DNA from: a candidate division WS1 bacterium
GTDB taxonomy: Bacteria > Armatimonadota > Zipacnadia > Zipacnadales > UBA5352
Length of the DNA stretch: 64,000 nt
Direction of reading: 5' to 3'
Assembly: GCA_012522765.1 (NCBI GenBank)
Contig: JAAYJW010000331.1
Location: forward strand, 2,331 to 66,330
A model generated the notes under the pieces. That model saw nothing but the letters and a program-made list of their open reading frames with translations. It was not told where the DNA came from and ran no database searches. The position numbers were made by a program, and so were the translations under genes. Positions 26,191 to 50,380 of this stretch are shown here, in pieces. The first letter of the stretch is position 1. Every line of letters starts with the position of its first letter.

Positions 26191-27798
26191 CTACTGTAGC
26201 GCCCCCGCATGTCGGCCCGCTGCCGGGTCGCCGGCCGTGTGGATCGTCCCATCTTCCTCGATCGCGAGCATCACCGGCATGGCGATGAAGCCGTCGGTCA
26301 CCGACACGTCATGCCCGCGCCCCGCAAGCTCCTGCCGCACGTCCTCCCCCACACCTGCGTTCACCTGCAGGCTGCCGGGAGCCTTGAGTGCGCGAGAGCG
26401 ATCAGGGTCGGAGTCGAACGAGTTCTCCAGGTGATCGGTGGAGAAGCGCGGGACCGTCAGCGCCTCCGCGGGAGCCATCCCGAACTCAAGATGGTTGAGC
26501 AGCACGTTGAGCGTCGTCTGGTCCTGCAGATCGCCACCCGCCACGCTGATCGCCGCCACGAGCCGCCCCTCCTGTGTCACCAGCGTCGGGGTGAGTGTCA
26601 CGCGAGGGCGCTTGCCGGGCTGGATGCGGTTCGGGTGCAGGGGGTTGGTGTTCATGCAGCGCAGGCGATTGCCCTGCGTGACGCCCGTGCGCGGGTCAGG
26701 CTGATTGCCGCACAGGTTGCAGCTTGGCGTCGCGGCGACGACGTTCCCCCACCGATCCGCGACGACGCAGGTGGTGGTGTCGGAGATCGGCGTCGTGACT
26801 TCATTCGCCGCTGCTGGCCCGCCGCCGATGAGCTGCAGCATCGCATACGGGTCGCCCGGACGCCGCTCCTGAGACGCCCGCGCCATGTCAACAAGCTGGC
26901 GGCGCATCTGCGTGTACTCGTCGCTGAGCAGCCGGGGCAGCGGCACGCCCACGAACTCCGGATCCGCGTAATACTCATCACGGTCGGCGTAGGCGAGCTT
27001 CATCGCCTCTGTCACGACATGCAGATGGTCGGGCGAGAGGTGTCCCATCGCCTGCAGATCGCGCTCCTCCAGCAGCCGCAGCGACTGGCAGAGCACCGGC
27101 CCCTGCGTCCATGGCCCGCACTTGTGCACCGCGAAGCCGCGGAAGTCCACCGACACGGGCGCCTCAAGCGCGGGCACCTGCGCGGCGAGGTCGCGTGCGG
27201 TCAGCGGTGAATCAACATCGGCGTACCACGCCAGCAGTTCCTTCGCGATGTCACCGCGGTAGAAATGATCGCGGGCGGCATGAAGCCCGGCCTCGCGCGG
27301 GCCGGAACTCCGCCGCTCGGCCTCCACCAGCCTGCGCAGCGTCTCGGCGAGCCGCGGGTGCCAGTCGGCATCGCCCGCATCGAGCAGCCGCAGCGTCGGC
27401 GCCACTGCCCGGTCAAAGCCGATTGTGCCGAAGCTGCCGAGCGCCGTCAGGCAAAGGTGCAGAGCACCCGGAACGGGCATAGCCCGGTAGTCGCCCTCGT
27501 CGAGGATCCCGTGCTCGTAGTACCACGCGATTGAGGCGGGATCGAGCGGCGCGCGGCCGATGCCGCTGAGCACACGCACCTGCTGCGACCGCGCCTCGTA
27601 GAGCATCAGCGGAATCTCGCCGCCGATGGCGAACAGGCCGTAGTCTGTGACCGCAAGCGCCAGGATCGTGGCGACCGCGGCGTCTATCGCGTTGCCGCCC
27701 TCCGCCAGCACTTCCAGGCCGGCGGCGACAGAGCCAGTGCCTCCTGCGGCCACGGCCCCGCCGGAGCCTGAGGCGCTCCAGCCAATCTGTTCGCGCAT
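26191..27798 (-). CDS. ggt: Gamma-glutamyltransferase family protein (no signal peptide)
   Basis: GGT fold with Thr nucleophile context TTTCVVADRWGNVVAATPS. 535 aa. Confidence 0.85.
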   Translation of the reverse strand: MREQIGWSASGSGGAVAAGGTGSVAAGLEVLAEGGNAIDAAVATILALAVTDYGLFAIGGEIPLMLYEARSQQVRVLSGIGRAPLDPASIAWYYEHGILDEGDYRAMPVPGALHLCLTALGSFGTIGFDRAVAPTLRLLDAGDADWHPRLAETLRRLVEAERRSSGPREAGLHAARDHFYRGDIAKELLAWYADVDSPLTARDLAAQVPALEAPVSVDFRGFAVHKCGPWTQGPVLCQSLRLLEERDLQAMGHLSPDHLHVVTEAMKLAYADRDEYYADPEFVGVPLPRLLSDEYTQMRRQLVDMARASQERRPGDPYAMLQLIGGGPAAANEVTTPISDTTTCVVADRWGNVVAATPSCNLCGNQPDPRTGVTQGNRLRCMNTNPLHPNRIQPGKRPRVTLTPTLVTQEGRLVAAISVAGGDLQDQTTLNVLLNHLEFGMAPAEALTVPRFSTDHLENSFDSDPDRSRALKAPGSLQVNAGVGEDVRQELAGRGHDVSVTDGFIAMPVMLAIEEDGTIHTAGDPAAGRHAGALQ

Positions 27799-28099
27799 CT
27801 GCTGCTTCCTCCGATCATCAATGCGTACGCACCGCTGTCGTTGCCTCGCCCCCCTCCGTTCCGGAGGGGCCTGCGAACGTTTCTCCTCCCGCGCTCATCC
27901 TGCCTGTCGCTAACACTTGAGTCCTCCCCCTCATCCCGAAGGGAGAGGGGGCCGGGGGGTGAGGCAGCCGTTGCCGCAGGAGAGGGCGGTCCTCCCGCCC
28001 GCGGGCGGGACCTCTTCGTGGTCGTTTCTGTGCAGCGGGCGCGACTGGACCGCACGGACAGGAGTGTCCGTGCCACGGAACGGCAACGTACTGCGACCC

Positions 28100-28150
28100 G
28101 CGTCGCTTCGCTCCGCCCCCTGCGAGGGCGCAGGGGTCACAACGACAACA
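28100..28150. repeat. REP-like palindromic element (copy 1)
   Basis: cgcgtcgcttcgctccgccccctgcgagggcgcaggggtcacaacgacaac, about 90% identical to the 38911-38960 copy. Core hairpin CCCCTGCG-AGG-GCGCAGGGG. The flanking 27840-28090 carries further GC hairpins. Confidence 0.6.
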
Positions 28151-28224
28151 CATTTGCGGCGCATGGACAGGGCGCATGTCGCGCGAAGGATCGAGCAGCG
28201 GGCGCATTCTGGGTTGCCGCCGCG

Positions 28225-29070
28225 CTACTGCGTCACCCGCCGGACGTCCACCGTGAAAGCGTCCTCATCCACCTTCACCAACAGGTAGTGATGGAAGCCA
28301 CCGTTCTGCGGCTCCGCGTAAAGCGATGCGCCCGCCCCGCCCGTGATGAAGTAGTGAATGCCATCCTTCTCCCTGTGATTGTACAGATGCTCGTGCCCGT
28401 GGAAGACCGCGTCAACGCCGCTTTGCACGAATAGCTGATGCAGCGCGTCGCGGTCCCTCGGGTGCTTGTCCAGCGAGTAGCCGATGTTGGCGCCAACTGG
28501 GAAGAGCGGCCGGTGCATCGCAACGAAGATGAACCTCGCGTCCTTCGCCTCCTCAAGATCCTGCTTTAGCCACTGAAGCTGTGTCCCGGTGACGCGGGCG
28601 TCGGCGCCGATGGTCTCCGAGTCGAGGATGATGAAGTGGCAGCCGGCGAAGTTGAAGGAGTGGTAGAGCTTGCGGAAGTGCTCGCAGAATATCTCCGCGT
28701 TGCGCCGGATGCCGCGGATGTCGTGGTTGCCGGGAGCGAGGGCCACGGGGATGGTTCGATTCGCCTGCAGGGGCTGGATGGCGGTGAAGAAGCCGTTCCA
28801 CTGTCGCCGCACGGTCGTCTGATTCGCTGAACCGTCAATGTAGTCACCGCAGCCGATGACGAAGGGCACCTCAAGCTGCCCGACCTCGGTGGCGATCCGC
28901 TCCATGATGGGGCTGAACTCGCGGCCGTAGGGCTGGCAGTCGCCGAAGACCGCGAAGCTGAACGGCTCGTGCCGCGGCGGCTGCTCCTCCTGTGCTGAGA
29001 CGGTGGCGATCACCAGCAGCACCATCAGGAGCGCGATCATCACAACACGCGGCGCCTTCATTGCCATCAT
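28225..29070 (-). CDS. Secreted calcineurin-like metallophosphoesterase
   Basis: Signal peptide. Motifs GDCQ, GDYID, GNHD, GHEH. Confidence 0.85.
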   Translation of the reverse strand: MMAMKAPRVVMIALLMVLLVIATVSAQEEQPPRHEPFSFAVFGDCQPYGREFSPIMERIATEVGQLEVPFVIGCGDYIDGSANQTTVRRQWNGFFTAIQPLQANRTIPVALAPGNHDIRGIRRNAEIFCEHFRKLYHSFNFAGCHFIILDSETIGADARVTGTQLQWLKQDLEEAKDARFIFVAMHRPLFPVGANIGYSLDKHPRDRDALHQLFVQSGVDAVFHGHEHLYNHREKDGIHYFITGGAGASLYAEPQNGGFHHYLLVKVDEDAFTVDVRRVTQ

Positions 29071-29094
29071 CGCCTCCCCTGCTCAACCGGCGGC

Positions 29095-30114
29095 TCAGAA
29101 CAGCTTCGCGATCTCATCCTGATCGTAACGCGGCAGGTCCATCCAGCTCAGCCCGCGGCGGATCCTGATGCCATGGCGCTCCTCCACCACCTCACCGATC
29201 TCCGCGCACTCCACGCCCTCTTCCCGGCAGGCGGTGATGATCCCTCCGGCACTGTCGGCACTCACCGCCAGCAGCAGCGAACCTGAGGCGATCAGCCCCA
29301 GCGGCTCCAGCCCCAGCACCTCGCAGAACTGCTCCGTCTCGGGGTAGACCGGGATGTCATCAAGGCGCACCGCCACCCCGTTGCCGCTGGCGATCGCCAG
29401 CTCATGCAGCCCGGTGGCGAGGCCGCCCTCGGTGGGATCGTGCATCGCATGGACCTCGCCCGCGTTGACGGCGATCTGTGCGTCGCGCAGCACGTTGATG
29501 CCCGGATCGTGCAGGAAGTGCTTCGCCCGCTCGATGGTCTCCGCCTCGAAGCCGGCGTCATTAAGCCGCTCGCCCATCTCCCGGGCGATGATCGAGGTGC
29601 CCTCCACCGCCACGCGCTTGGTGAGCAGCAGCCGGTCGCCGACCTGCGCGCCGTCGGAGCTTATCAGGGCATCCTTCGGCACCTCGCCAAGCATGAAGCC
29701 GACGAGGAGCGGACGGTCGAGGCCCCATGTCACTTCCGTGTGCCCCCCGACAAGGGCAATGCCGAGGTCGCGGCAGGCGGCGTTGATCTGATCGAAGATG
29801 GTGCGCACGAGAGCGTCGTCGCTGGCGTCGTCGGGCAGAAGCAGCGTGGCGAGGAACCAGCGCGGCACGCCACCTGACGTGGCCACGTCGTTGGCATTGA
29901 CTGCAACCGCGTAGTAGCCGATTTCGTCGGTGGCGAAGGTGATCGGGTCGGTCTTGGCGATGAGGTAGCTGTCGCCCGTGCCCCACTCCAGCACCGTCAC
30001 ATCGCGCCCCACGCCGGGGCCGACGATGACCGCCGGGTCAGTGATGCTCAGACCGCCGAGTAGTTCGGCGAGGAACTCCGGTTCGAGCTTGCCAACCGGC
30101 AGCCGGCGTTGCAA
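29095..30114 (-). CDS. AIR-synthase-related (PurM-like fold) protein, HypE/ThiL/SelD superfamily
   Basis: PurM N- and C-domain pattern (VAVNANDVATSGGVP, LVGGHTEV). No C-terminal Cys, so not a canonical HypE. Confidence 0.7.
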   Translation of the reverse strand: MQRRLPVGKLEPEFLAELLGGLSITDPAVIVGPGVGRDVTVLEWGTGDSYLIAKTDPITFATDEIGYYAVAVNANDVATSGGVPRWFLATLLLPDDASDDALVRTIFDQINAACRDLGIALVGGHTEVTWGLDRPLLVGFMLGEVPKDALISSDGAQVGDRLLLTKRVAVEGTSIIAREMGERLNDAGFEAETIERAKHFLHDPGINVLRDAQIAVNAGEVHAMHDPTEGGLATGLHELAIASGNGVAVRLDDIPVYPETEQFCEVLGLEPLGLIASGSLLLAVSADSAGGIITACREEGVECAEIGEVVEERHGIRIRRGLSWMDLPRYDQDEIAKLF

Positions 30115-30117
30115 GGC

Positions 30118-30843
30118 TCAGGCCTCCTCCGCCCGCAGGCACAACACGTCCACCAGGTCGGCGACAGAGTCCAGCACGAGGTCGGCGCCAAGCTCCTCGA
30201 ACTGCTCCCGCGTGGTGCCGGCTGTAAGGACGCCCGCTGTCCATGCTCCCGCGGCCCTGCCGGTCTCGATGTCCGTGATATGATCGCCCACCATCAGCGT
30301 CTGCGCGGGCGTGGCCTCGAGCACCTCCAGCGCCAGGTGCAGGTGCTCGGGGTCGGGCTTGACGCGCACCACGTCGTCACGCGTAAGCAACACCTCGTGG
30401 TGCAGCGGGTGGCGGCTCACAACGCTCTCGACGCCGGTGCGGCAGTTACGTGTGATGATGCCCACGCGATGACCGCAGGCGCGAAGCATTTCCAGCGTCT
30501 CCGGCACTCCGGGGAAGGGCGCGGCAGTCGTGGTGGAAAGCAGTTCAACTTCCAGCATCGCCTGCTGCGCCTCTTCGTGGAAACGCTGACGATCGCTCTC
30601 ATCGAGCAGCGCCATCGCGTCCTGCACGATCTCAAGGATGTAGCGCCTCGAATTAAGGTGCTCGATCAGCCGCCACCGCTCGGCGACTTCCAGCACCCGC
30701 TGCCGCATGAGGGCGAAGTCAATGTTGGTCTCCGCGAGGGTGCCGTCGAAGTCGAAGACGACGGCCCGGATCGCGGCCGGGTCGAAGATGAGTTGCTGCT
30801 GCTCGGGTTGAGTGCTCATGTGATGAAGACCGGCGAGGCCCAC
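30118..30843 (-). CDS. HAD-superfamily phosphatase (HAD-IA)
   Basis: Motif I VVFDFDGTL; motifs II-IV present (MVGDHITDIETGRAAG). Likely start at MSTQPE. Confidence 0.85.
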   Translation of the reverse strand: MGLAGLHHMSTQPEQQQLIFDPAAIRAVVFDFDGTLAETNIDFALMRQRVLEVAERWRLIEHLNSRRYILEIVQDAMALLDESDRQRFHEEAQQAMLEVELLSTTTAAPFPGVPETLEMLRACGHRVGIITRNCRTGVESVVSRHPLHHEVLLTRDDVVRVKPDPEHLHLALEVLEATPAQTLMVGDHITDIETGRAAGAWTAGVLTAGTTREQFEELGADLVLDSVADLVDVLCLRAEEA

Positions 30844-32306
30844 GCCATCTCGCCATCGGCCTGAGTGATGCGAAGGTAGTAGTAGTCGCCCGGGCGCGCC
30901 GGCTCAGCGTCGCTGAGGGTGACGCTGGCGCGGCTGTCAGCCGATGACACGGTCGCGATCTCGCGGTTGTTCTTCACGAGTTCGATGGCGCTCAGCGCTG
31001 CGGTGCCGATGATCTCGGCCTGCAACTCGGCGGGGCCGCTGATCTCCTCAGCGGCGATCTCGCCGCCCATCGGCGTGTCGCCGAGACTGAAGCGGACGAT
31101 GATCCGTGCGCCGGTGGTGGCGTAGCAGCGACGGGCACGTAGCGCGTCGAAGATGCCGTCGCGGGTGAGGCTGTCCGCCCAGACGCCGGTGATCCCGGGC
31201 GGGGCGAGGAAGTCGGTCTCTGCAATCACATGCCAGCCGTGTACCAGCGGACGCGAGGGGCGGCCGTCGTGCGACTCCGAGCCACCGGTGAAGCCGAAGC
31301 GCCAGCCGCGCGCGAGGCCGTCCTGCAGATGGTGGCCGCGAGCCTCGCCCGTCTTGAAGTAGCCACCCGAGGGCAGATACTTGATCGGGTAGGGCTCGCC
31401 GGGCTTCTCCGAGCTGCCCCAGATGGAGAACACCTCGCAGCAGCGCTCAAGCTCCGCGTCGCTGTAGTCCCAGTTCATCCACGTGTTGCCACCGCCGCGG
31501 GCGGTGTGATGCGGGAATGAGAGCACATCCGCAGTCGGCATCGCCTCGCGCAGTGCTCGGAAGAGACCCTCGGCGGTATGTGTCGCATATTCGTTTGAAC
31601 GGAAGATCGGCACCTGCTCGATGCCGCGCGCACGGTTGCGGCGGTAGATGATATGCCGGTGGCCGAAGTTGCGCGACATGTCCTGCGAGTTGCCCCACTC
31701 ATAGCCGGGGAAGGTGACGAAGCGGCCGCTCTCGTTCAGCCGCCGATGCACCTCGATCTGCTGCGCCCATTCGTCATCGGTGAGGTTGAGGTCGTGGTCG
31801 GAGACGGTGGCGAAGTGGATTGCCGCCACGTCGCGCGCCCACGCGAGTGCATCCCCGACAGTAGGCGGGCCCATCAGCAGGTCCGCATCGCTGATGAGAG
31901 CCTGTGCGGGCCGCTCGCGGATGTGCGAGTGGACATCGCCCCAGTAGAGCGACAGCGGCCCTGGTTCGACGCTTACCTCCAGCGGATCGGAGCCCGCGTG
32001 AAAGCCGCCGAGGGTGGCCTCGATGTGATAGACGCCCGCCTCAGGCGCCACGATCTCCAGGTGCCCGAGACCTTCGTCAATCTGCACACTATCGAGATCG
32101 CTGGGGCCATCTGCACCGACGAGGCTGAGAGCCGCGGTGCCTGCGCCGTCGGTGGCGGTGGCGCCGATGCCGTTAAGTGCCTGCACGGTGACCCGAACGC
32201 GGTCACCGTACGTGGCACTACTGTCGGTTACGACCCGGAGGCCTGTGACCTCCGGGTCGATGAGCCTCTGAACGACCTCAGGGAGCGGCGGGGGCTCCTG
32301 TGCCAT
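30816..32306 (-). CDS. DUF3604 family protein (paralogue 1), putative PHP-like metal-dependent phosphoesterase
   Basis: Motifs YWGDVHSHI, SGRFVTFPGYEWGN, and C-terminal DYYYLRITQADGEMAWASPVFIT. Start MAQEPP (ATG 32304-32306) with GGAGGTG RBS. Overlaps the UPF0182 gene end. Confidence 0.75.
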   Translation of the reverse strand: MAQEPPPLPEVVQRLIDPEVTGLRVVTDSSATYGDRVRVTVQALNGIGATATDGAGTAALSLVGADGPSDLDSVQIDEGLGHLEIVAPEAGVYHIEATLGGFHAGSDPLEVSVEPGPLSLYWGDVHSHIRERPAQALISDADLLMGPPTVGDALAWARDVAAIHFATVSDHDLNLTDDEWAQQIEVHRRLNESGRFVTFPGYEWGNSQDMSRNFGHRHIIYRRNRARGIEQVPIFRSNEYATHTAEGLFRALREAMPTADVLSFPHHTARGGGNTWMNWDYSDAELERCCEVFSIWGSSEKPGEPYPIKYLPSGGYFKTGEARGHHLQDGLARGWRFGFTGGSESHDGRPSRPLVHGWHVIAETDFLAPPGITGVWADSLTRDGIFDALRARRCYATTGARIIVRFSLGDTPMGGEIAAEEISGPAELQAEIIGTAALSAIELVKNNREIATVSSADSRASVTLSDAEPARPGDYYYLRITQADGEMAWASPVFIT

Positions 32307-35289
32307 TGATGGCACCTCCGGTCTCCTGCTCGATCTGCTGCCCAAGCTGGTCCAGCAACTGCGTCTGCTGCTGGTTGAGCTCGAAGTAGGTGACCACATC
32401 GCCGCGGGCACGGGCCGCCTCGGCGTCGCGATTGAGCGCGAGGATCCGATCGAGCGTCTGGCGGACCGTCTCGAGCACCCCGGACTCGGCCCCCGGTGTT
32501 GCGGCGGTGGGCGGCTCAAACGCGTCATCGGGCAGCTCCACCTCGACTCCGAGGTCGCCGAAGATCTGCGTCAGTGCGCCCTCGATGGTGTCGCTGAAGG
32601 CGATCGAATCGCCGTAGACGAGGATGACCTTGCGCAGCTCGGGAAGACCGGTATCCTCGGCCTCGAGGTAAAGCGGCTCCACGTAGAGCAGCGAGTTCTC
32701 GAGCGGGATCACGAGCAGGTTGCCACGGATCACATTCGAGCCCGCCTGGCTCCAGAGCGTTATCTGCGACGAGATTGTCGGGTCCTGCCCGATACGCGAC
32801 TCGATCATCCACGGGCCGTACACCAGTTGCCCCTTCGGGAAGTGATAGACCATAAGCTCGCCGTAGTTGGGCCCATCGCAGCGGGCGGCCATCCACGCGA
32901 CCATGTTCCGCTCCTCCTGGCCCTGCAACACCAGCGGCATCATGATCAGGAACTCGGGCTCTTCCTCTCCCGGGAGTCGCATGACCACGTAGTAGGCCTC
33001 GACCATCCGGCGGCCGAAGGAGTAGATCTCCGGCGGCATGGCCCAGCGGTCCTCACCCTGATAGAAGACCTCGGGGTCCTTCATGTGGTAGTCGGCGTAG
33101 ACGCCCACCTGAAGGGTGAAGAGAAGCTGCGGGACGCGCAGGTGGCTGCGCAGGTGATCGGACATCTCCTCGCCGCGCTTGAACAAAGTCGGGAAGATCT
33201 TGTCGTAGCACTGCACCAGCGGATCGGTGTCGTCAACGATGTAGTACTCGGGCGTCCCGTTGTAGGCGTCGCAGACAACCTTAACGGAGTTGCGGAAGTA
33301 GTTCCCCAGCGGTCGCAGTCCCTGCGAGTAGGGATACTTACCCGAGATCGTATAGGCGTCGTTGATCCACTTGAGCGAGCCGTCCTCATCAATGACGATG
33401 TAGGGGTCGGGGTCATACATCATGAACGGCGCGATGGCCTGCATCCGCTCGGGAAGAGTCCGGTTGATCTGGATGCGGCTCTCGTGCGTCGTCAGGTTCG
33501 TGAACAGGATGCGCACGTCCGGGAAGAAGCGGGCGAAGAAGGCGAAGCGCCGGAAGTAGGACGAAAGCTGCACGCCCCCGGTGCCGTCGTAGTGGATGTA
33601 GGCGTTGTCGATCTCACCAGTGCCCTCGCCACCGCGGGAGTAGTGAAGCTCCTGCTCCTTGGTGTTGACGATGACGAACTCCTGAGCGGTGATGTCCTCG
33701 GGCGTGCCGCCGTAGCCGCGTCGCGGCTGATTCGGGCCGGTTGCAGGCTGACCGGTACCCGGCCCCTCCGGAGTCTCTGCTCCGGGCTGCGCCTGCGGCT
33801 GCTGTGTCGTCAGAGGCTGCTCCGGCGGGCGCATCCGCTCAATCATCCGAGGATGCGTGGCGGTGCCGTAGTAGATCCCGAGGTTGGGCGTGTTCTCCTG
33901 CTGCGGGAGGCTCGGGATCCCGATATCCTGCGAGACGGTCAGCGGAATGCCATGCACCCAGTAGTTGGGGCGGCCCTCTGCATTAGTCTCATTGACCGGC
34001 GCGAGCGTAATGCCGTAGCCGTGGGTGTACTTCAGGTTCCTGTTGACCCATCGCTCCCGACCGGGAAGCTTATCGGCGTTGAGCTGCCGCGGCGCCAGCA
34101 TGACCTGGCGGATCCGGCCATCTACCATGTAGCGGTCAACATCCACGTCCGGGAAGTTGTAGTAAGCGCGCAGCGCCTGCTCCTGGTTGTAGGTTCGCTG
34201 CAGCGGGCGATGGTCCCACAGGCGAATGTTCTCAATCGTCGCCCAGTTATCGCGGATCGTTTCGGGGGTGATGTCGTTGCTGATCGCAATGCTTCGGTCC
34301 TCCACCTCATGCGTACCGTAGGCGAAGTTGGTTGCTTCGATGTTCCGTGCGATGTAGGGCCGCTCATACTCAAGCTCGTTCGGCACTACCACGAGCTTCT
34401 GCATGGCCAGCGGATAGACTGTGCCGCCGAGCAGCGAGAGCAGGATCAGGGCCGCGACCGCGCCTGCGGGCAGCTTGTAGTTGCGGGTGCGGATCGCCAC
34501 GATGGCGATGATTGCCGCAGCCAGCGACGCCGCCATCAGCAGATACAGCACCGGCAGGCGGGCGTGGATGTCGGTCCACCCCGCGCCGCCGCGGAAGGCG
34601 CCGGAGGCGTTGCCGAAGAGCAGATCATACTGGGCGAGCCGGTAGCTGTAGATCTTCACCAGCAGCGTGGCCGCCAGAAGGCCGAGGGCGTGTGCGCGCG
34701 CTCGCGGAATCGCCTGCACCGTGTTCCCGACGAGGCGGATGGCCTCCTGATACAGATGCACTACTACGCTGAAGACGAAGGTCACTACCAGCGCGTAGTA
34801 GAGCGACTGCCACATGTACTCAATGAAGCGCAAACGGAAGACGTAGAAGCCGGCGTCCTTGCCGAAGACCGGGTCGGCCTGGTTGAACGGGACCCAGTTG
34901 GCATACTGCAGCCACTCGATCCAGTGAGCACTCGCGACCACGCCGGCCATGACCGCGCCGACTGCGGCGAAGAGCAGCAGAGCGCGGTCGGCATACTGCT
35001 CGATCTGCTCGCGCTCCTCCTCCGGGAGCAGCCGCCGGCCGATGAACGTGACATCACCGGGCAGTGGCCTGCGCGCGAAGCGCAGGTTGGCGTAGAAGAA
35101 CGCGAAGAACAGGCCGGCCACCACCACGCCGAGCACTACGCGGTTCCAGAAGATCGTGGTGAATACCGCTTCCTGCCCGAACGAGCCGAACCACAGATAG
35201 TCGGTGTAGAGCGTCAGGCCTTTGGCGATCAGCACCAGGCCGAAGACCACAGCGAACAGATATAGAACCCAACGGTTGGAAGTTGCCAC
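32278..35289 (-). CDS. UPF0182 family membrane protein (1003 aa)
   Basis: N-terminal hallmark LTLYTDYLWFGSFGQ with multiple TM helices, then a large extracytoplasmic domain. Confidence 0.85.
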   Translation of the reverse strand: MATSNRWVLYLFAVVFGLVLIAKGLTLYTDYLWFGSFGQEAVFTTIFWNRVVLGVVVAGLFFAFFYANLRFARRPLPGDVTFIGRRLLPEEEREQIEQYADRALLLFAAVGAVMAGVVASAHWIEWLQYANWVPFNQADPVFGKDAGFYVFRLRFIEYMWQSLYYALVVTFVFSVVVHLYQEAIRLVGNTVQAIPRARAHALGLLAATLLVKIYSYRLAQYDLLFGNASGAFRGGAGWTDIHARLPVLYLLMAASLAAAIIAIVAIRTRNYKLPAGAVAALILLSLLGGTVYPLAMQKLVVVPNELEYERPYIARNIEATNFAYGTHEVEDRSIAISNDITPETIRDNWATIENIRLWDHRPLQRTYNQEQALRAYYNFPDVDVDRYMVDGRIRQVMLAPRQLNADKLPGRERWVNRNLKYTHGYGITLAPVNETNAEGRPNYWVHGIPLTVSQDIGIPSLPQQENTPNLGIYYGTATHPRMIERMRPPEQPLTTQQPQAQPGAETPEGPGTGQPATGPNQPRRGYGGTPEDITAQEFVIVNTKEQELHYSRGGEGTGEIDNAYIHYDGTGGVQLSSYFRRFAFFARFFPDVRILFTNLTTHESRIQINRTLPERMQAIAPFMMYDPDPYIVIDEDGSLKWINDAYTISGKYPYSQGLRPLGNYFRNSVKVVCDAYNGTPEYYIVDDTDPLVQCYDKIFPTLFKRGEEMSDHLRSHLRVPQLLFTLQVGVYADYHMKDPEVFYQGEDRWAMPPEIYSFGRRMVEAYYVVMRLPGEEEPEFLIMMPLVLQGQEERNMVAWMAARCDGPNYGELMVYHFPKGQLVYGPWMIESRIGQDPTISSQITLWSQAGSNVIRGNLLVIPLENSLLYVEPLYLEAEDTGLPELRKVILVYGDSIAFSDTIEGALTQIFGDLGVEVELPDDAFEPPTAATPGAESGVLETVRQTLDRILALNRDAEAARARGDVVTYFELNQQQTQLLDQLGQQIEQETGGAINGTGAPAAP

Positions 35290-35401
35290 CTATGAAGTCC
35301 TCCGATTCATTTACGGCATGTGCGGATAGGACGCATGCGGGTGCCCGAGAGCGTGGTTTCGTGCCGGGGGCATGGTTCATCGTGGCCTGTGCGGATGGCG
35401 G

Positions 35402-35884
35402 CTACTGCTCCGGCTCATCCTCGTCCAGTTCGATCCTGCCCAGCAGGTCCTTAAACTTCTCGAGGTCCTGCTCACTCTGTTCCACCGTCTCATCCACGAT
35501 CTGCGCGACTTTCAGGACATCCTCGGCCACGAAGATCGGCACGTCGGCACGTAGAGCAAGAGCTATCGCGTCAGACGGTCGTGAATCAATCTCAAGCCGC
35601 TCACCGTCGCGCGTAACCTGCAGCAGCGCGAAGAATGTGCGGTCCTCAAGTCGCGTAACCTCAATTCGGTTGAGTTCCCAGCCCGTCTCGTCGATGATCG
35701 CCAGCAGCAGGTCGTGCGTGAGCGGTCGCCCGATGTCCTCTCCGCTGATCGCCATAGCGATCGACTGCGCCTCAAAGAGCCCTATCATGATCGGCAGAAG
35801 CCGGCGCTCTTCCTCATCGGCGAGAATCACGAGTGCCTGCCGGTTCGGATCTATCCCCACACGCTGGACCGTCATCTGGACCAT
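35402..35884 (-). CDS. Bifunctional nuclease (BFN/DUF151) domain protein
   Basis: VGIDPNRQALVILADEEERRLLPIMIGLFEAQSIA matches the BFN N-terminal region. Start taken at MVQMTVQ. Confidence 0.7.
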   Translation of the reverse strand: MVQMTVQRVGIDPNRQALVILADEEERRLLPIMIGLFEAQSIAMAISGEDIGRPLTHDLLLAIIDETGWELNRIEVTRLEDRTFFALLQVTRDGERLEIDSRPSDAIALALRADVPIFVAEDVLKVAQIVDETVEQSEQDLEKFKDLLGRIELDEDEPEQ

Positions 35885-36092
35885 CGACGTCGAGCCTCCT
35901 CCACCGTGCACCGAACCCACCCTCTGCGGTTGTCGGCAATAACCGCAGTCGCACACAGCAGGGCCTGTCATCGCAAAGTTAAGCCTATCACAGGCTGTTG
36001 CCGGAAGTCAAACTTGAGGGCCGGCCAATCGGGCAGGAGGCATCCCGTAGGCGCTGTTGCGGGCCAGTCACGTTCGGTGGAACGCAGATGGT

Positions 36093-36998
36093 CTATTTCG
36101 TGCGCGAATTGCGTCTGGCAAGGTAGGTGGACAGCGCGCGGCCCAGCGGCATGTCCGTAACGAAAAGCTCGTGATCCATGCCACGCCCCACGCAGCCATC
36201 GTGCAGGCAGTCAACATGTGACCGGATCGCCGCCTGATACTGCTCCCGCACCTGTTCTGCGTCCGTGGCGAGCCGTTCCCCGGTCTCCATATCCTCGACC
36301 AGGGCCGGTCCGTGGACGCCCAACTCAATCTCAGAGCGGTGCAGCACCTGCAGGACGATCAGGTCGTGGCCTCGACGGCGCAGTGTGGCGAGGGCCCTCA
36401 GTATCGCCTCCGGGTCATCGAGCAGGTCCGAAATCAACACGATCAGGCCGCGGCGCCGGATGCTGCCGCCAAGCTGCACGAGGGCCTGGCTAAGCGCAGT
36501 CTCGCCACCTGGCCGGGCCCCCTCCAGGCGGTCGAAGACGCCCTGCAGATGCCCCCTGCGGGTCAGTGGGGGCAGTTGATCGTGGATGGCATCATCAAAG
36601 AGGCTCAGGCCGACGGCATCCCGCTGGCGCCATGCCAGCCATGCGAGCCCGGCGGCGAGATAGCAGGCGCAGTCAAGCTTGGTCACGGCCCCTTCAGGGT
36701 AGCCCATCGAGGCGGAGGAATCGACGGCCAGCCAGACGCTGAGGCTGGTTTCGGCCTCGAACTGCTTCACGAAGAAGCGGTCGCTGCGGCCGTAGAGCCG
36801 CCAGTCGAGGTGCCGAAGCTCATCGCCGTGCGAGTAGGCGCGGTGATCGGCGAATTCGATGGATGCGCCGCGGAAGTGGCTGCGGTGGCGGCCGGAGTAG
36901 TAGCCCTCTACCATCGCCCGCGCCCGAAGCTCCATTGACGGGAGCGCGGCGAGAAGTTCGGCATCAACCGTGCGTGTGACGCTCGGGGTCGGGTTCAC
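36093..36998 (-). CDS. DUF58 (vWA-like) domain protein
   Basis: HFRGASIEFADHRAYSHGDELRHLDWRLYGRSDRFFVKQFE is the DUF58 signature. No adjacent MoxR ATPase. Confidence 0.8.
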   Translation of the reverse strand: MNPTPSVTRTVDAELLAALPSMELRARAMVEGYYSGRHRSHFRGASIEFADHRAYSHGDELRHLDWRLYGRSDRFFVKQFEAETSLSVWLAVDSSASMGYPEGAVTKLDCACYLAAGLAWLAWRQRDAVGLSLFDDAIHDQLPPLTRRGHLQGVFDRLEGARPGGETALSQALVQLGGSIRRRGLIVLISDLLDDPEAILRALATLRRRGHDLIVLQVLHRSEIELGVHGPALVEDMETGERLATDAEQVREQYQAAIRSHVDCLHDGCVGRGMDHELFVTDMPLGRALSTYLARRNSRTK

Positions 36999-37456
36999 CC
37001 GCCCTCCCCATGCTCATGCACATCGAGCGCCTCAAGCCGCTTGATCTTCTCCTCGAGGCTCGCGGGAGGCGTCTTCTCCGGATGGCGCTCATAGTAGTAC
37101 TTCGCGGCTGCCGCGATGCCCTCTTCGCCCAGCACCGAACAATGCACCTTCACCGCCGGAAGGCCGTCAAGCTCACTCACGACATCTGCGTTACCGACCT
37201 TGAGGGCGTCCTCCAGGGTCTTGCCCTTGACCATCTCGGTGAGGATCGAGCTTACAGCAATGGCGGCGCCGCAGCCGAAGGTCTGGAAGTTGATGTCCTC
37301 GACGACCTCGGTATCGCCGTTGATCCGCATGGTGATCTTCATTATGTCGCCGCAGCGGGGGTTGCCCACTTCGCCAATCGCGTTGGCGTCCTCAAGCACG
37401 CCGACGTTGCGCGGGTTCTCGAAGTGATCCATGACCTTCTCGGAATATTGCATCAA
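36995..37456 (-). CDS. iscU: Fe-S cluster assembly scaffold IscU/NifU-like
   Basis: GNPRCGDIMKI, FQTFGCGAAIAVSS, HCSVL with three conserved Cys. 4-nt overlap with the DUF58 gene. Confidence 0.88.
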   Translation of the reverse strand: MMQYSEKVMDHFENPRNVGVLEDANAIGEVGNPRCGDIMKITMRINGDTEVVEDINFQTFGCGAAIAVSSILTEMVKGKTLEDALKVGNADVVSELDGLPAVKVHCSVLGEEGIAAAAKYYYERHPEKTPPASLEEKIKRLEALDVHEHGEGG

Positions 37457-38910: not shown

Positions 38911-38960
38911 CGCGTCGCTTCGCGCCGCCCCCTGCGAGGGCGCAGGGGCCACACAACGAC
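38911..38960. repeat. REP-like palindromic element (copy 2)
   Basis: cgcgtcgcttcgcgccgccccctgcgagggcgcaggggccacacaacgac, followed by CAACGGC-rich low-complexity sequence up to about 39170. Confidence 0.6.
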
Positions 38961-39171
38961 TCCGGCAACGGCAAACGACAACTGCGACGGCACAGGTCGG
39001 CACGGGGGCCGACCTCTCCAACGGCACACGACGCATGCCAACGGCTACGGCGACGACAACGGCCCACGGGCGAGGGCGCCCGTGGCACATGATGGACGTA
39101 AGTCTGCCGCGAGCCGTCGCCGTCGCTGTCGTTTCTTTCGTTGCTTCCGCTGCCTTCGTTGCTGCCGTTCG

Positions 39172-39546: not shown

Positions 39547-41025
39547 CTACCTCCCGACCCACACCGGCGAGGTCCACGCCATCTGCCCGTTGGCCTGCGT
39601 CACGCGCACGTAGTAGTAGTCGGCGCCCTCGCCCGAGCCCTCGTCTTCAATCTCCAGCGACGCCTCATAGCTCTCAGGCAGCACGAGGCGATCGATCTGC
39701 ACGTTCTCGGTAGTGAACGCGCCGGTGAAGGCCGTCTCAGACTGCGCCGCAAGTTCCCCGAGCGTGCGCTCGATCGTCAGCGATGAAGGCCGCGTCACCC
39801 GCAGCGTCACCTGCGCATCCGCGGGGCCTGCGATCTCGAAGTACATGCGCTTGGTCGGGTCCTCCGCCAGCGCACCCTCGCGCGCGGTGAAGGACTGCCA
39901 GCGGCACGCGCTGTCGCTTCTCTCGAGCACCCGGTCGCGGCGATATTCCTCATAGGGAGCCGCCTGCCACGCGGGCACTGCGTTGACGATGGTAGCGCCA
40001 TCGAGCCGCAGTTCCATCTCCCAGTCGCAGGTGCGCGGCATCGAGAGCGTCGCCCACGGTCCCCAGCCGTAGCGGACATGGCAGCGCGCCCTGCCGGGCC
40101 ATGGATCGAGCGCCGGCTTCTGCTTGCCGAAGGCCCGCGCGATCGGCTCCCCGTTGCGGATAAGCTCGACCATGCTGATCTCATCCCAGCCGATGACGCT
40201 CACGGCGATCTCGCGCACATCGCTCGCCTCAAGCTCGCTGCCCATCGGCTGCCCATTCACGCTGAAGTCGATCTCGATGCGGTCGCCCGAGACGGCGTAG
40301 CAGCGGCGCTTGCGCAGGGCGTCGAAGATCGCCTCGCGCGTGAGTTCCGGCGCTATCACCGCGGCTATGCCCTCGCCCCACGCTCCGGGATAACCGAGGT
40401 GATCGTCGGTCGAGCCGACGCAGCCGAGCCGCATGCCCTGATCGAGCGCCCACTGCCATGTGCTGGAAGTAGCGCGGCCGCCCATCGAGTGGCGGATGTA
40501 GTCGTGCAGGCCGCGGTCCCGCTCGGCGCCTCCGTGCTCGGAGATGATCTCAGCGATCGGCGAGAGGTCGGTATCCACGTGCTCCCACATCTGCCCGCGC
40601 CAGAGGCGGGGGTAGCCAGGGTGGTGGGGAATGAGCAGCGCGCCCATCTTCCGCGCGTAAGCCTTCAGCCCATCGAGCGTGGCGAAGTAGCGCAGTTCGC
40701 CGGAATCGTCGGGGAAGACGATGTGATAGTCGCCCCACGAGATCGAGTGGAACTCCCATCCGGGGAAGGTGACGAACTCGCCGGGACGGTAGTAGCTGCG
40801 CGTGAGGCGCTGCACCTCGGGCCACTGCGCGCGCAGATCGGCGAAGCCATGCACCCACTTCATGTGCGCGTTCTGCGGCATCACGGGCATGTCGGGCCAT
40901 TGCGAATGCCCGGCGTGCGCGAAGAAGTCGAGGTGCTCGCGGGCTATCTCAAACGATCGTGCGAGCGATCCCTTCGCGTAGCCCGCGGCATTGTGATTGT
41001 GCAGGTCGCCCCAGTAGATCGGCAT
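39547..41025 (-). CDS. DUF3604 family protein (paralogue 2)
   Basis: Starts directly at MPIYWGDLHNHN (GGGAGGA RBS). Motifs PGEFVTFPGWEFHS and GADYYYVRVTQANGQMAWTSPVWVGR. Confidence 0.75.
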   Translation of the reverse strand: MPIYWGDLHNHNAAGYAKGSLARSFEIAREHLDFFAHAGHSQWPDMPVMPQNAHMKWVHGFADLRAQWPEVQRLTRSYYRPGEFVTFPGWEFHSISWGDYHIVFPDDSGELRYFATLDGLKAYARKMGALLIPHHPGYPRLWRGQMWEHVDTDLSPIAEIISEHGGAERDRGLHDYIRHSMGGRATSSTWQWALDQGMRLGCVGSTDDHLGYPGAWGEGIAAVIAPELTREAIFDALRKRRCYAVSGDRIEIDFSVNGQPMGSELEASDVREIAVSVIGWDEISMVELIRNGEPIARAFGKQKPALDPWPGRARCHVRYGWGPWATLSMPRTCDWEMELRLDGATIVNAVPAWQAAPYEEYRRDRVLERSDSACRWQSFTAREGALAEDPTKRMYFEIAGPADAQVTLRVTRPSSLTIERTLGELAAQSETAFTGAFTTENVQIDRLVLPESYEASLEIEDEGSGEGADYYYVRVTQANGQMAWTSPVWVGR

Positions 41026-41117
41026 GTCTGGTCCTCCCGATGAATGACCGAAGGGGCCGGACTCGGCCGCTCCCATCGAGCGTCCTCGTGCGGCCCCTCC
41101 TCGTCTTCAGTCTCAGA

Positions 41118-49502: not shown

Positions 49503-50240
49503 ATGAACTTGACGAAGGTGCTGATGGGTATTGCGGTGGCGGGGCTTGTGCTGGGTGGGCTGGTCTGCGGGTTCGCGACGGCTGCTGAGCACCAGTGCGA
49601 CGGACAGTGTCGCCCGGACAGTGCGAACTGGCAGGAGTACCTCGAAGCTAACGATGCCAACGGCGATGGGATGATCTCACTTGAGGAGTTCGCTGCCGAG
49701 GATCATGTCTTCATCCGCATAGACGCGGATGGCGACGGGCTGATCAGCCGCGAGGAAGCCATCGCCGCCGAGGCGACGCGACACCAGCAACAGGGGACGC
49801 GCGGGCAGTTCCAGGCGACAGTGGACCCCGCCGAGCGCTGGCAGCGGATGCTCGATCATGTGGATGCGGACAAGAGCGGGACTGTCTCGCAGGATGAGTT
49901 CTCCGGCCCCGATCACGCCTTCACCCGGCTCGATGCCGACGGCGACGGGCAGTTGACTGAGGCCGAGGTCCTCGCCGCCGCTCCGCGGATGCAGCAGCGG
50001 CAGGATGGCGAGGGCGGCGGACGAGGCGCGCGGCTCGCCCCGGCGGAGCGCTGGCAGCAGATGCTCTCCACGTGGGACGCCGATGAGAGCGGGACCATCT
50101 CCCGCGAGGAGTTCCGCGGCCAGGACCACGCGTTCGATCGCCTCGACGCCGACGCAAACGGCCAGATCACCGAAGAGGAGGCACTCGCGGCGAAGGCTGC
50201 GATGCGGCAGGGCGGACGTGGCGCCGGCAATCGCCGCTGA
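49503..50240 (+). CDS. Secreted/membrane-anchored EF-hand repeat calcium-binding protein
   Basis: Signal/TM segment, then five EF-hand loops (DANGDGMIS, DADGDGLIS, DADKSGTVS, DADGDGQLT, DADESGTIS, DADANGQIT) in an alternating internal repeat. Confidence 0.8.
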   Translation: MNLTKVLMGIAVAGLVLGGLVCGFATAAEHQCDGQCRPDSANWQEYLEANDANGDGMISLEEFAAEDHVFIRIDADGDGLISREEAIAAEATRHQQQGTRGQFQATVDPAERWQRMLDHVDADKSGTVSQDEFSGPDHAFTRLDADGDGQLTEAEVLAAAPRMQQRQDGEGGGRGARLAPAERWQQMLSTWDADESGTISREEFRGQDHAFDRLDADANGQITEEEALAAKAAMRQGGRGAGNRR

Positions 50241-50329: not shown

Positions 50330-50380
50330 CGTTACCGAACGACATCGCCACTTTGCGCCGCCCCCTGCAAGGGCGCCTCC
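50330..50380. repeat. REP-like element (degenerate copy)
   Basis: aacgacatcgccactttgcgccgccccctgcaagggcgcctcc resembles 50672-50720. Confidence 0.5.

What the first reader, a model, noticed from the sequence alone, without database searches (positions are those of the whole stretch)
29095..35289. Overlapping four-gene operon UPF0182 - DUF3604 - HAD phosphatase - PurM-like protein
The genes are on the same strand with overlaps or tiny gaps: 29-nt overlap at 32278-32306, 28-nt overlap at 30816-30843, and a 3-nt gap at 30114/30118. Tight coupling of a huge UPF0182 membrane protein (unknown function) with a putative phosphoesterase, a HAD phosphatase and an ATP-grasp-like PurM-fold enzyme suggests a shared, undescribed pathway, possibly an envelope-associated phosphorylated metabolite cycle. 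Neither UPF0182 nor DUF3604 has a known function.
Basis: inference. Interest (0 to 1): 0.55.

Follow-up and report, generated by a model that had tools for sequence, protein, structure and literature searches.

The report
Composite Armatimonadota operon, HAD–PurM-like core
The tightly packed gene run is real, but it looks like two older gene modules joined in one bacterial lineage, and only the HAD phosphatase and the PurM-like enzyme, which are fused into one protein in many other bacteria, are shown to work together.

Summary
Four minus-strand genes (UPF0182, a DUF3604/PHP-type metallohydrolase, a HAD phosphatase and a HypE-like PurM-superfamily protein) sit with a 29-nt overlap, a 4-nt ATGA overlap (not 28 nt) and a 3-nt gap. 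A BFN-domain gene is a constant upstream neighbour.

The source is an Armatimonadota-like digester MAG. Comparative data split the set:
- **HAD + PurM-like is the real unit.** The two are adjacent at -8 to +24 nt in every relative. They are fused in at least 14 of the 150 best 50%-identity representatives, and two fused genes looked up stand alone in unrelated contexts.
- **DUF3604 is a late insertion.** It occurs only in the subclade with PurM-like identity of about 65% or more.
- **UPF0182 is separable.** Five of six DUF3604-less relatives carry a hairpin plus T-run terminator between UPF0182 and HAD. About 57 UPF0182 loci at 40% identity or less have none of the enzymes nearby.
- **UPF0182 has a proposed role.** A 2025/26 preprint links it to FtsH-related membrane-protein quality control.

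Co-transcription in this window is likely. A single shared pathway is not supported. The chemistry of the HAD–PurM-like enzyme is still unknown, which gives the finding modest interest.

The parts
35402..35884 (-). BFN-domain (bifunctional nuclease domain) protein, 160 aa. It is the constant upstream neighbour of UPF0182, with a 112-nt spacer.
   Evidence: Pfam BFN_dom 133 bits. Called as a 160-aa gene on identical contigs. The BFN-UPF0182 pair is kept in all cluster-bearing relatives and in L155/L158, where UPF0182 is 40% identical.
32278..35289 (-). UPF0182 membrane protein, 1003 aa. It has 6-7 N-terminal TM segments followed by a large extracytoplasmic domain. The GTG start has GGAGG upstream.
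   Evidence: Pfam PF03699 818 bits. Hydrophobic segments at 8-291. Start context. No PDB relative by sequence.
30816..32306 (-). DUF3604 / CehA-McbA-like PHP-type metallohydrolase, 496 aa, with no signal peptide. The layout is N-terminal beta-sandwich, PHP-like barrel, then C-terminal beta-sandwich. It overlaps the UPF0182 stop by 29 nt. It is a lineage-specific insertion.
   Evidence: Pfam DUF3604 84.7 bits; NCBIfam CehA_McbA 70 bits, below the cut-off of 80. AF2 pLDDT 92.6. Best PDB match is 3e38, a PHP-like phosphoesterase, E 3e-8. H126/H128 (GDIHxH), E203, H266/H267 and H346 are conserved. Orthologues at 54% identity or more carry only Armatimonadota names where named, and the three whose context was read lie in this cluster. 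The gene is absent from L008, L010, L029, L092 and L150.
30118..30819 (-). HAD-IA phosphatase, 233 aa, with motif I FDFDGT. It has an ATGA 4-nt overlap with the DUF3604 stop.
   Evidence: Pfam HAD_2 92.5 bits. TIGR01549 and TIGR01509 are above their cut-offs, while all equivalog models (PpaX, PGP, MupP and others) are below theirs. It is 38% identical (E 6e-42) to the HAD domain of the fused HAD-AIRS protein P0245.
29095..30114 (-). PurM-superfamily, HypE-like ATP-utilising enzyme, 339 aa. TTG start with GAGGAGG upstream, 3 nt after the HAD stop. Substrate unknown.
   Evidence: AIRS + AIRS_C. All NCBIfam equivalogs are below cut-off: HypE 123/252, ThiL 91/184, SelD 86/125. AF2 pLDDT 92.6. Nearest folds are HypE at TM 0.82-0.84 and 22-23% identity, then ThiL and SelD. 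The family gives 1537 representatives at E<=1e-30.
28225..29067 (-). Exported calcineurin-like metallophosphoesterase, 280 aa, with an N-terminal signal peptide. It lies 27 nt after the PurM-like stop and has its own GGAGG.
   Evidence: Pfam Metallophos 57.6 bits. Signal peptide MAMKAPRVVMIALLMVLLVIATVSA. It follows the PurM-like gene at +1 to +185 nt in every cluster-bearing relative whose contig extends past the PurM-like gene.
27799..28224 (-). 426-nt hairpin-rich spacer with no convincing gene. It is the probable 3' boundary of the unit, ahead of the GGT gene (26191-27798). It contains a REP-like palindrome at 28117-28136.
   Evidence: The two ORFs inside it have no Pfam hit. The fold is strongly structured and the repeat also occurs at 38929 and 50696. 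The spacer is absent in L087, where Metallophos and GGT overlap.

Best explanation
This is a lineage-specific composite operon of an Armatimonadota-like bacterium. It was formed by joining two older units.

**Unit 1** is the BFN-domain protein plus the UPF0182 membrane protein. Actinobacterial genetics link UPF0182 to FtsH-related membrane-protein quality control.

**Unit 2** is a cytoplasmic HAD-IA phosphatase plus a HypE-like PurM-superfamily enzyme, followed by an exported metallophosphoesterase.

The HAD and PurM-like genes are the split form of a bifunctional HAD-PurM-like protein that is widespread in other phyla.

Inferred chemistry, from the known reactions of PurM, PurL, ThiL, SelD and HypE: the PurM-like part uses ATP to phosphorylate or activate an oxygen of a small-molecule substrate, and the HAD part removes a phosphate from the substrate or the product. 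The substrate is unknown.

In more distant relatives the two units are adjacent but separated by an intrinsic terminator. In the subclade that includes this window, a cytoplasmic PHP-type (DUF3604) metallohydrolase gene replaced that spacer. It now overlaps the UPF0182 stop, so all of UPF0182-DUF3604-HAD-PurM-like-metallophosphoesterase is probably read as one transcript with translational coupling.

Shown here: the anatomy, the domain identities, the pattern of synteny, the fusions, and the terminators in relatives. Inferred: co-transcription, the chemistry, and the lack of a shared pathway with UPF0182.
For: **Anatomy and ribosome-binding sites:**

**Spacing:**
- HAD to PurM-like is -8 to +24 nt in 11 independent contigs. 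In L090 the two are fused by a TGA-to-TGG change.

**Fusions:**
- A profile search of 1.84 billion representatives showed about 25 of the best 150 with N-terminal extensions. Fourteen of those 25 are HAD+AIRS+AIRS_C by Pfam.
- Among ten fused representatives looked up, clusters hold up to seven members. Several clusters have full-length fused members on different contigs, and one carries a Spirochaetales name.
- The window HAD is 38% and 33% identical over its full length to the fused HAD domains.
- Two fused genes looked up sit alone in unrelated contexts.

**DUF3604:**
- Present when PurM-like identity is about 65% or more: L087, L088, L090, L113, L166.
- Absent at 50-56%: L008, L010, L029, L092, L150.

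**Terminators:** hairpin plus T-run in the UPF0182-HAD spacer of L008, L010, L029, L150 and L091.

**UPF0182 elsewhere:** about 57 loci at 40% identity or less lack HAD, PurM-like and Metallophos within 8 kb. Seventy-one of the 80 PurM-like loci from GTDB genomes have none of UPF0182, HAD or Metallophos nearby at tblastn E<=1e-5, and only three have UPF0182.

**Proposed UPF0182 role:** bioRxiv 10.1101/2025.11.14.688347.
Against: - The five-gene block BFN-UPF0182-HAD-PurM-like-Metallophos survives down to about 48-51% UPF0182 identity while the flanking genes change. At that divergence, kept order usually reflects selection, so some functional or regulatory tie to UPF0182 cannot be excluded.
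- L092 has only 15 nt between UPF0182 and HAD and no terminator.
- Terminator calls are consensus-based and could equally be attenuators.
- No transcript data exist.
- Three putative phosphoesterases plus an ATP-using enzyme in one run is at least suggestive of a common phospho-metabolite theme.
Confidence: 0.6

Rival explanations
1. UPF0182, DUF3604, HAD, PurM-like and the metallophosphoesterase are steps of one undescribed pathway, for example an envelope-associated cycle in which a metabolite or lipid-linked compound is phosphorylated in the cytoplasm and dephosphorylated at or beyond the membrane.
For: - Overlapping or tightly packed genes.
- The block is retained across relatives with about 50% identity while the flanks change.
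- The protein set combines a membrane protein with a large periplasmic domain, an exported phosphoesterase, and cytoplasmic ATP-using and phosphatase enzymes.
- The PurM-like gene is also followed by a different, membrane-anchored Metallophos in 4 Anaerolineae loci, and by HADs in Latescibacterota and Gemmatimonadota.
Against: - DUF3604 is dispensable.
- Terminators lie between UPF0182 and HAD in 5 of 6 DUF3604-less relatives.
- UPF0182 in other lineages is never linked to these enzymes.
- Fused HAD-PurM-like genes occur as stand-alone genes.
- UPF0182 genetics in Actinobacteria point to FtsH and YccA, not metabolism.
- The window holds three DUF3604 paralogs, so one landing here need not be meaningful.
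Confidence: 0.15
2. Adjacency without co-regulation. Each module keeps its own promoter, for example inside the 3' end of UPF0182 or inside DUF3604. The overlaps are then only a by-product of genome compaction and the order is inherited by descent.
For: - Among close relatives the whole ~20-kb region is collinear, from the DUF3604 paralog, cupin, rotamase, NifU and DUF58 through to GFO, Pkinase and ABC. Conservation there is therefore not specific to these genes.
- Terminators in the distant relatives show that the units can be transcribed separately.
Against: - The 29-nt and 4-nt overlaps and the 3-nt gap, each with a GGAGG sequence, are typical of translational coupling. They leave no room for a terminator.
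- The sigma-70 scan found no promoter-like site at the junctions. This is weak evidence, because promoter rules for this phylum are unknown.
Confidence: 0.15
3. The PurM-like protein is simply a divergent member of a characterised family (HypE, ThiL or SelD). The HAD-PurM-like pair would then serve hydrogenase maturation, thiamine phosphate metabolism or selenophosphate synthesis.
For: - Source annotations call homologues 'HypE / hydrogenase maturation factor'.
- HypE is the nearest structure at TM 0.82-0.84, with ThiL and SelD next.
Against: - All equivalog scores are far below their cut-offs.
- Identity to HypE is 22-28%.
- The C-terminus is ...DEIAKLF, with no HypE C-terminal Cys motif. There is also no Cys in the N-terminal G-K loop as SelD has.
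- No hyp, thi or sel genes were seen among the window genes scanned or the neighbours surveyed.
Confidence: 0.07

Closest known systems
UPF0182 family (PF03699; e.g. M. smegmatis MSMEG1959, M. tuberculosis Rv3193c)
   Same: Full-length Pfam match at 818 bits. Same architecture of about 7 N-terminal TM helices followed by a large extracytoplasmic domain.
   Different: The protein is from an Armatimonadota-like lineage. It has an extra C-terminal region of about 90 aa that many distant homologues do not align to. The FtsH/YccA link proposed for Actinobacteria was not tested here, and no ftsH or yccA was seen among the window genes scanned.
HypE (carbamoyl dehydratase of [NiFe]-hydrogenase maturation), PurM superfamily
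   Same: Same two-domain PurM fold (TM 0.82-0.84). It shares the DPTxGG-type and GGHTE-type motifs and the N-terminal G-K loop.
   Different: - 22-28% identity.
- TIGR02124 score of 123 against a cut-off of 251.6.
- No C-terminal cysteine substrate tail.
- No hyp genes nearby.
- Partnered or fused with a HAD phosphatase, which HypE is not.
ThiL (thiamine-monophosphate kinase) and SelD (selenophosphate synthetase)
   Same: Same superfamily and ATP-dependent phosphoryl chemistry. Structural E-values are around 1e-25.
   Different: Scores are below the curated cut-offs. The SelD Cys/Sec loop is absent. The substrate pocket was not assessed.
HAD-IA small-molecule phosphatases (PpaX, phosphoglycolate phosphatase, MupP)
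   Same: The HAD subfamily-IA models TIGR01549 and TIGR01509 score above their cut-offs. Motifs FDFDGT, GIITRN, KPDP and GDhxxD are present.
   Different: No equivalog model is reached (the best is PpaX at 101 against 218). The protein belongs to a subfamily whose members are often fused N-terminally to the PurM-like enzyme.
DUF3604 / CehA-McbA PHP-type metallohydrolases; PDB 3e38 (BVU_3505)
   Same: PHP-like barrel with a conserved His/Glu metal-ligand pattern, flanked by beta-sandwich domains.
   Different: Only a partial Pfam match. The CehA_McbA domain model scores below its cut-off (70 against 80). The orthogroup is narrow and carries only Armatimonadota names. No member has been characterised, and the single paper in the searched library that mentions DUF3604 does so only in passing.

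Membership tests
UPF0182 (PF03699) | Pfam model above its gathering score over most of its length | tested here: met
   818.5 bits against a cut-off of 27, in two stretches covering the model.
UPF0182 (PF03699) | About 7 N-terminal TM helices plus a large extracytoplasmic domain | tested here: met
   Six to seven hydrophobic 19-mers between residues 8 and 291, and none afterwards. This matches the architecture described in the preprint.
UPF0182 as an FtsH-linked quality-control factor | Genetic or physical link to FtsH, YccA or a small TM partner | not testable with these tools
   No ftsH or yccA among the window genes scanned. This needs genetics.
DUF3604 (PF12228) / CehA-McbA metallohydrolase | Family models above their curated cut-offs | tested here: inconclusive
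   Pfam gives 84.7 against 20.4, but the best stretch covers only model positions 128-240 of 591. NCBIfam NF038032 gives 70 against 80, which is not reached.
DUF3604 (PF12228) / CehA-McbA metallohydrolase | PHP-type fold with conserved His/Glu metal ligands | tested here: met
   H126, H128, E203, H266, H267 and H346 are nearly invariant in 30 homologues. The AF2 model's best PDB hit is a PHP-like phosphoesterase, 3e38.
HAD superfamily, subfamily IA | Catalytic motif I DxDGT with motifs II-IV, and subfamily models above cut-off | tested here: met
   FDFDGT, GIITRN, VKPDP and VGDHITDIE are present. TIGR01549 scores 48.3 against 23.3 and TIGR01509 scores 41.2 against 29.4.
Named HAD equivalogs (PpaX, phosphoglycolate phosphatase, MupP, phosphonatase) | Equivalog model above its curated cut-off | tested here: not met
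   Best scores: PpaX 100.8 against 218, PGP 86.6 against 225, MupP 80.7 against 359.
PurM superfamily (AIRS + AIRS_C) | Both Pfam domains above cut-off, and the PurM fold | tested here: met
   AIRS 68.1 against 24 and AIRS_C 88.4 against 23.1. Foldseek TM 0.7-0.84 to HypE, ThiL and SelD, and about 0.64-0.69 to PurM.
HypE | TIGR02124 above cut-off, and a C-terminal Cys (PR[IV]C) that carries the carbamoyl/cyano group | tested here: not met
   123.4 against 251.6. The C-terminus is ...YDQDEIAKLF, and the family consensus ends DEIxKLF.
ThiL / SelD | Equivalog models above cut-off. For SelD, also a Cys/Sec in the N-terminal glycine-rich loop. | tested here: not met
   ThiL 90.6 against 184 and SelD 85.6 against 125. 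The N-terminal loop is LPVGKLEPEF with no Cys.
   The top 50 listed structural matches are all PurM-superfamily proteins.
Calcineurin-like metallophosphoesterase (PF00149) | Pfam model above cut-off, and the GD / GDxxD / GNH[DE] / GH motifs | tested here: met
   57.6 against 21.5. FGDCQ, GCGDYIDG, PGNHD and HGHEH are visible in the translation.
Operon (single transcription unit) | Same strand, with overlaps or gaps too short for a terminator plus promoter | tested here: met
   Spacings of -29, -4, +3 and +27 nt. There are no terminator-like sites at the junctions.
Operon (single transcription unit) | One transcript spanning all the genes | not testable with these tools
   No transcript data are available. 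Relatives carry terminator-like hairpins between UPF0182 and HAD.
Conserved functional gene cluster | The linkage recurs in independent lineages, or as gene fusions | tested here: inconclusive
   **HAD + PurM-like: met**
- Fused in at least 14 representative clusters.
- Also adjacent, in the other order, in Latescibacterota and Gemmatimonadota.

**UPF0182 or DUF3604 with the enzymes: not met outside one clade**.

The most novel reading that the evidence does not exclude
The HAD-PurM-like pair, fused in many uncultured lineages, may catalyse an undescribed ATP-dependent reaction on a phosphorylated small molecule. In Armatimonadota its product would be functionally tied to the UPF0182 membrane protein and the exported metallophosphoesterase. 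The operon would then mark a real envelope-linked phospho-metabolite route, and it would give a biochemical handle on UPF0182.
Probability: 0.12. Interest if true: 0.55.

Novelty: new member of a known kind. Interest (0 to 1): 0.3.

Why it matters
The operon as a whole is ordinary. It is a lineage-specific juxtaposition of genes from known superfamilies, already auto-annotated in public MAGs.

The useful by-product is the HAD + HypE-like PurM-superfamily unit. It is split here and fused elsewhere. The family is large, with 1537 50%-identity representatives at E<=1e-30, and spans many mostly uncultured phyla. It has no curated equivalog, no close solved structure and no literature in the searched library. 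That makes it a reasonable target for enzyme discovery.

The case also shows that tight overlaps in one genome can be a recent by-product of a gene insertion that erased a terminator, and need not indicate a shared pathway.

Tried and rejected
- **Rfam and tRNA.** A gathering-score scan of the whole window, an E-value scan of 27500-36300 and a tRNA scan found no riboswitch or RNA gene. The only match was a chance snoRNA hit at E 0.71.
- **Conserved partners of the PurM-like gene.** I clustered all ORFs within 6 kb in 81 loci and ran Pfam on the immediate neighbours. No universal partner emerged. There was only a recurrent minority of phosphohydrolases (Metallophos 7/47, HAD, MazG) and GGT at 5/47 by Pfam, where tblastn gave 6 loci, all in Rokubacteria/Methylomirabilota.
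- **Sequence search of solved structures.** Nothing for UPF0182. For the DUF3604 protein there was only a filamin-like Ig repeat match at its N-terminus.
- **Literature searches.**
  - DUF3604: one irrelevant paper.
  - The PurM-like family: nothing relevant.
  - HAD-AIR synthase fusions: zero papers.
- **Sigma-70 promoter scan.** It gave counts close to the shuffled expectation and nothing at the junctions. It is uninformative for this phylum.
- **Is the L090 HAD-PurM fusion an assembly artefact?** It is a single TGA-to-TGG change and would be weak evidence alone. The representative search showed that fusions are common, which settled the point.
- **Did the inserted DUF3604 arise by duplication of the paralog about 7 kb upstream?** Rejected. 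The two share only 35% identity over about 80 residues.

Full report
**1. Observation**

The minus strand of 28.2-36.0 kb carries a run of genes.

| Gene | Coordinates | Evidence |
|---|---|---|
| UPF0182 | 32278-35289 | 818 bits |
| DUF3604 / CehA-McbA-like | 30816-32306 | Pfam 84.7 bits, partial; NCBIfam 70, below the cut-off of 80 |
| HAD-IA hydrolase | 30118-30819 | subfamily models above cut-off |
| AIRS + AIRS_C (PurM-superfamily) | 29095-30114 | both domains above cut-off |

The junctions were read directly from the sequence.
- ATG 32306 is preceded by GGAGG and overlaps the UPF0182 stop by 29 nt.
- The HAD gene most likely starts at ATG 30819, in an ATGA overlap with the DUF3604 stop.
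- The PurM-like TTG 30114 lies 3 nt after the HAD stop and has GAGGAGG upstream.

Gene calls on six identical or near-identical metagenome contigs agree with these starts: 1003, 496, 233 and 339 aa. Orthologue lengths agree too.

Two things were missed. A fifth gene follows 27 nt downstream, an exported calcineurin-like metallophosphoesterase at 28225-29067 with a clear signal peptide. A BFN-domain gene at 35402-35884 lies 112 nt upstream of UPF0182. After the metallophosphoesterase comes a 426-nt hairpin-rich spacer, then GGT and a GFO/IDH/MocA oxidoreductase. No terminator-like site lies at any internal junction. There is no Rfam family or tRNA in the window.

**2. Source**

Contigs encoding an identical PurM-like protein (and near-identical neighbours) come from anaerobic-digester metagenomes. 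The closest named homologues are Armatimonadota MAG proteins, annotated as 'AIR synthase family protein' and 'DUF3604 domain-containing protein'.

**3. The proteins**

- **UPF0182.** It has 6-7 TM segments in its first 300 residues and then a large soluble domain. It has no solved relative by sequence. A 2025/26 preprint reports that knock-down phenotypes of the M. smegmatis UPF0182 gene correlate strongly with ftsH and yccA, and that related correlations hold in C. glutamicum and B. breve. It proposes a role in membrane-protein quality control and FtsH regulation. So the family is no longer entirely without a proposed function.
- **DUF3604-like protein.** The AF2 model is confident (pLDDT 92.6). 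It shows an N-terminal beta-sandwich, a PHP-like barrel and a C-terminal beta-sandwich. The best PDB match is the PHP-like phosphoesterase 3e38. The His/Glu ligands are conserved. It has no signal peptide.
- **HAD.** It has all four HAD motifs and reaches only the subfamily-IA models.
- **PurM-like protein.** The model is confident (pLDDT 92.6).
  - It is closest to HypE (TM 0.82-0.84, 22-23% identity), then ThiL and SelD.
  - Every equivalog model scores far below its cut-off.
  - It lacks the C-terminal cysteine of HypE and the Cys/Sec loop of SelD.
  - It is not ATP-grasp-like.

**4. Synteny from the PurM-like side**

I scanned one genome per GTDB species with a 28-sequence alignment and kept the best 80 loci. 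I then ran tblastn with all the window proteins against them.
- Only Armatimonadota-type loci share the neighbourhood. L008, L010 and L029 have [BFN]-UPF0182-HAD-PurM-like-Metallophos without DUF3604. L007 has HAD-PurM-like-Metallophos-GFO on a short contig.
- In Chloroflexota, Rokubacteria, Latescibacterota, archaea and others, the PurM-like gene is not near UPF0182.
- Look-ups of closer homologues (PurM-like 65-77% identical: L087, L088, L090; and L166) show BFN-UPF0182-DUF3604-HAD-PurM-like, followed by Metallophos(-GGT)-GFO wherever the contig extends that far (L090 ends at the fused gene). The same wider ~20-kb collinearity is present as well.

DUF3604 orthologues at 54% identity or more form a narrow group. 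Where they are named they are Armatimonadota, and the three whose context was read (P0127, P0129, P0148) lie in this cluster. The one looked-up homologue at about 43% identity (P0156) sits elsewhere. The window holds two more DUF3604 paralogs.

**5. Synteny from the UPF0182 side**

A metagenome scan with a UPF0182 alignment returned 75 loci, which I again tested with tblastn.
- Loci with about 48% identity or more usually keep the cluster: L091, L092 and L150 without DUF3604, and L113 with it.
- The exceptions are L151 and L160, where unrelated genes follow UPF0182.
- None of the roughly 57 loci at 40% identity or less has HAD, PurM-like or Metallophos within 8 kb.
- BFN-UPF0182 persists a little further, in L155 and L158.

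**6. Spacing and terminators**

Across the cluster-bearing loci the gaps are as follows.

| Junction | Gap (nt) |
|---|---|
| HAD to PurM-like | -8 to +24, or fused |
| UPF0182 to DUF3604 | -29 (three loci) to +22 |
| DUF3604 to HAD | -4 to +30 |
| PurM-like to Metallophos | +1 to +185 |
| UPF0182 to HAD, no DUF3604 | +15 to about +150 |

In five of the six loci of the last kind, the spacer holds a strong hairpin followed by a T-run, either detected by the terminator scan or visible in the fold. In L008, for example, GGGCGACAAT...ATTGTCGCCC TTTTATT lies 37 nt after the UPF0182 stop and 44 nt before the HAD start. L092 is the exception, with a 15-nt gap.

The simplest history is two adjacent transcription units. 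In the window's subclade, insertion of the DUF3604 gene replaced the terminator-bearing spacer.

**7. HAD and PurM-like are one functional unit**

P0014/L090 is an in-frame fusion caused by a TGA-to-TGG change. That is weak evidence alone.

The profile search of 1.84 billion 50%-identity representatives is stronger.
- It found 17,103 relatives at E<=1e-3 and 1,537 at E<=1e-30.
- About 25 of the best 150 carry N-terminal extensions.
- Fourteen of those 25 are HAD+AIRS+AIRS_C proteins.
- In several of the ten clusters looked up, full-length fused members occur on different contigs, and one member is from a Spirochaetales MAG.

The window's HAD is 38% identical (E 6e-42) and 33% identical over its full length to these fused HAD domains, so it belongs to the same subfamily. 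Two fused genes examined sit alone in unrelated, housekeeping-type contexts. A related HAD also follows the PurM-like gene in Latescibacterota and Gemmatimonadota.

The pair therefore needs none of UPF0182, DUF3604 or Metallophos. Other immediate neighbours of the PurM-like gene vary. Phosphohydrolases are a recurrent minority (Metallophos 7/47, MazG 2/47). GGT follows in 5/47 by Pfam, or 6 loci by tblastn, all Rokubacteria/Methylomirabilota.

**8. Mechanism**

Shown here: the anatomy, the domains, the fusions, the insertion and the terminators.

Inferred:
- In this window, UPF0182 through the metallophosphoesterase is probably one transcript with translational coupling.
- By analogy with PurM, PurL, ThiL, SelD and HypE, the PurM-like enzyme uses ATP to phosphorylate or activate an oxygen of a small substrate. 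The HAD domain removes a phosphate from the substrate or the product.
- The PHP-type hydrolase and the exported phosphoesterase may act on related phospho-compounds, but nothing ties them biochemically to the pair.
- UPF0182 is most likely a co-expressed neighbour and not a pathway member.

I put about 0.6 on this composite-operon reading, about 0.15 on a truly shared pathway, about 0.15 on adjacency without co-regulation, and under 0.1 on the PurM-like protein being a divergent HypE, ThiL or SelD.

**9. Novelty and score**

All five proteins belong to known superfamilies and are already auto-annotated in public MAGs. The gene order is a lineage-specific arrangement. I file it as a new member of a known kind.

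The more interesting residue is the uncharacterised HAD-PurM-like bifunctional family. It is large, phylogenetically broad, and has no curated equivalog, no close structure and no literature in the searched library. Interest: 0.3.

Noticed in passing
window 30816-32306 (-), 39547-41076 (-), 46379-48271 (+): There are three DUF3604-family paralogs within 16 kb of each other. The one at 39547-41076 is followed by a cupin gene, and that pair is conserved in relatives (L001, L166). The family is expanded in this genome.
   Followed up: partly
window 28117-28136, 38929-38948, 50696-50715 (degenerate copies near 50350-50376 and 50612-50631): A REP-like GC-rich palindrome, CCCCTGC(GA/AG)GGGCGCAGGGG, with about 15 nt of conserved flank, recurs in three intergenic regions. 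Dinucleotide-preserving shuffles give 0.02 expected matches.
   Followed up: partly
window 27799-28224: A 426-nt, 69% GC, strongly structured spacer lies between the metallophosphoesterase and GGT, with no Pfam-recognisable ORF. In relative L087 the two genes overlap instead, and L088 lacks GGT altogether.
   Followed up: partly
window 36093-36998 and 36995-37456 (-): A NifU_N (IscU-like) gene overlaps a DUF58 gene by 4 nt, and the two stay adjacent in relatives (overlapping in L001 and L087). To my knowledge DUF58 usually accompanies a MoxR ATPase, and none was seen among the genes scanned here.
   Followed up: no
loci L041, L043, L054, L072, L074, L079 (Rokubacteria/Methylomirabilota); L087 11020-12636: The PurM-like gene is directly followed by a gamma-glutamyltranspeptidase homologue in Rokubacteria. 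A GGT also follows the cluster in the window and overlaps the metallophosphoesterase in L087. This may be a second, unexplained association.
   Followed up: partly
window 38957-39064: Four imperfect 23-nt direct repeats (CGACnnCnGCAACGGCAnAnGAC-like) lie in the spacer between the cupin gene and a small 92-aa gene.
   Followed up: no
window 49503-50240 (+): A secreted-looking bacterial protein with multiple EF-hand motifs. It sits next to a CBS-domain M50 site-2 protease (48299-49423).
   Followed up: no
L155 and L158 (UPF0182 40% identical): The BFN-domain gene remains directly upstream of UPF0182 even where the HAD, PurM-like and Metallophos genes are absent. The BFN-UPF0182 pairing reaches further than the link to the enzymes.
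   Followed up: partly
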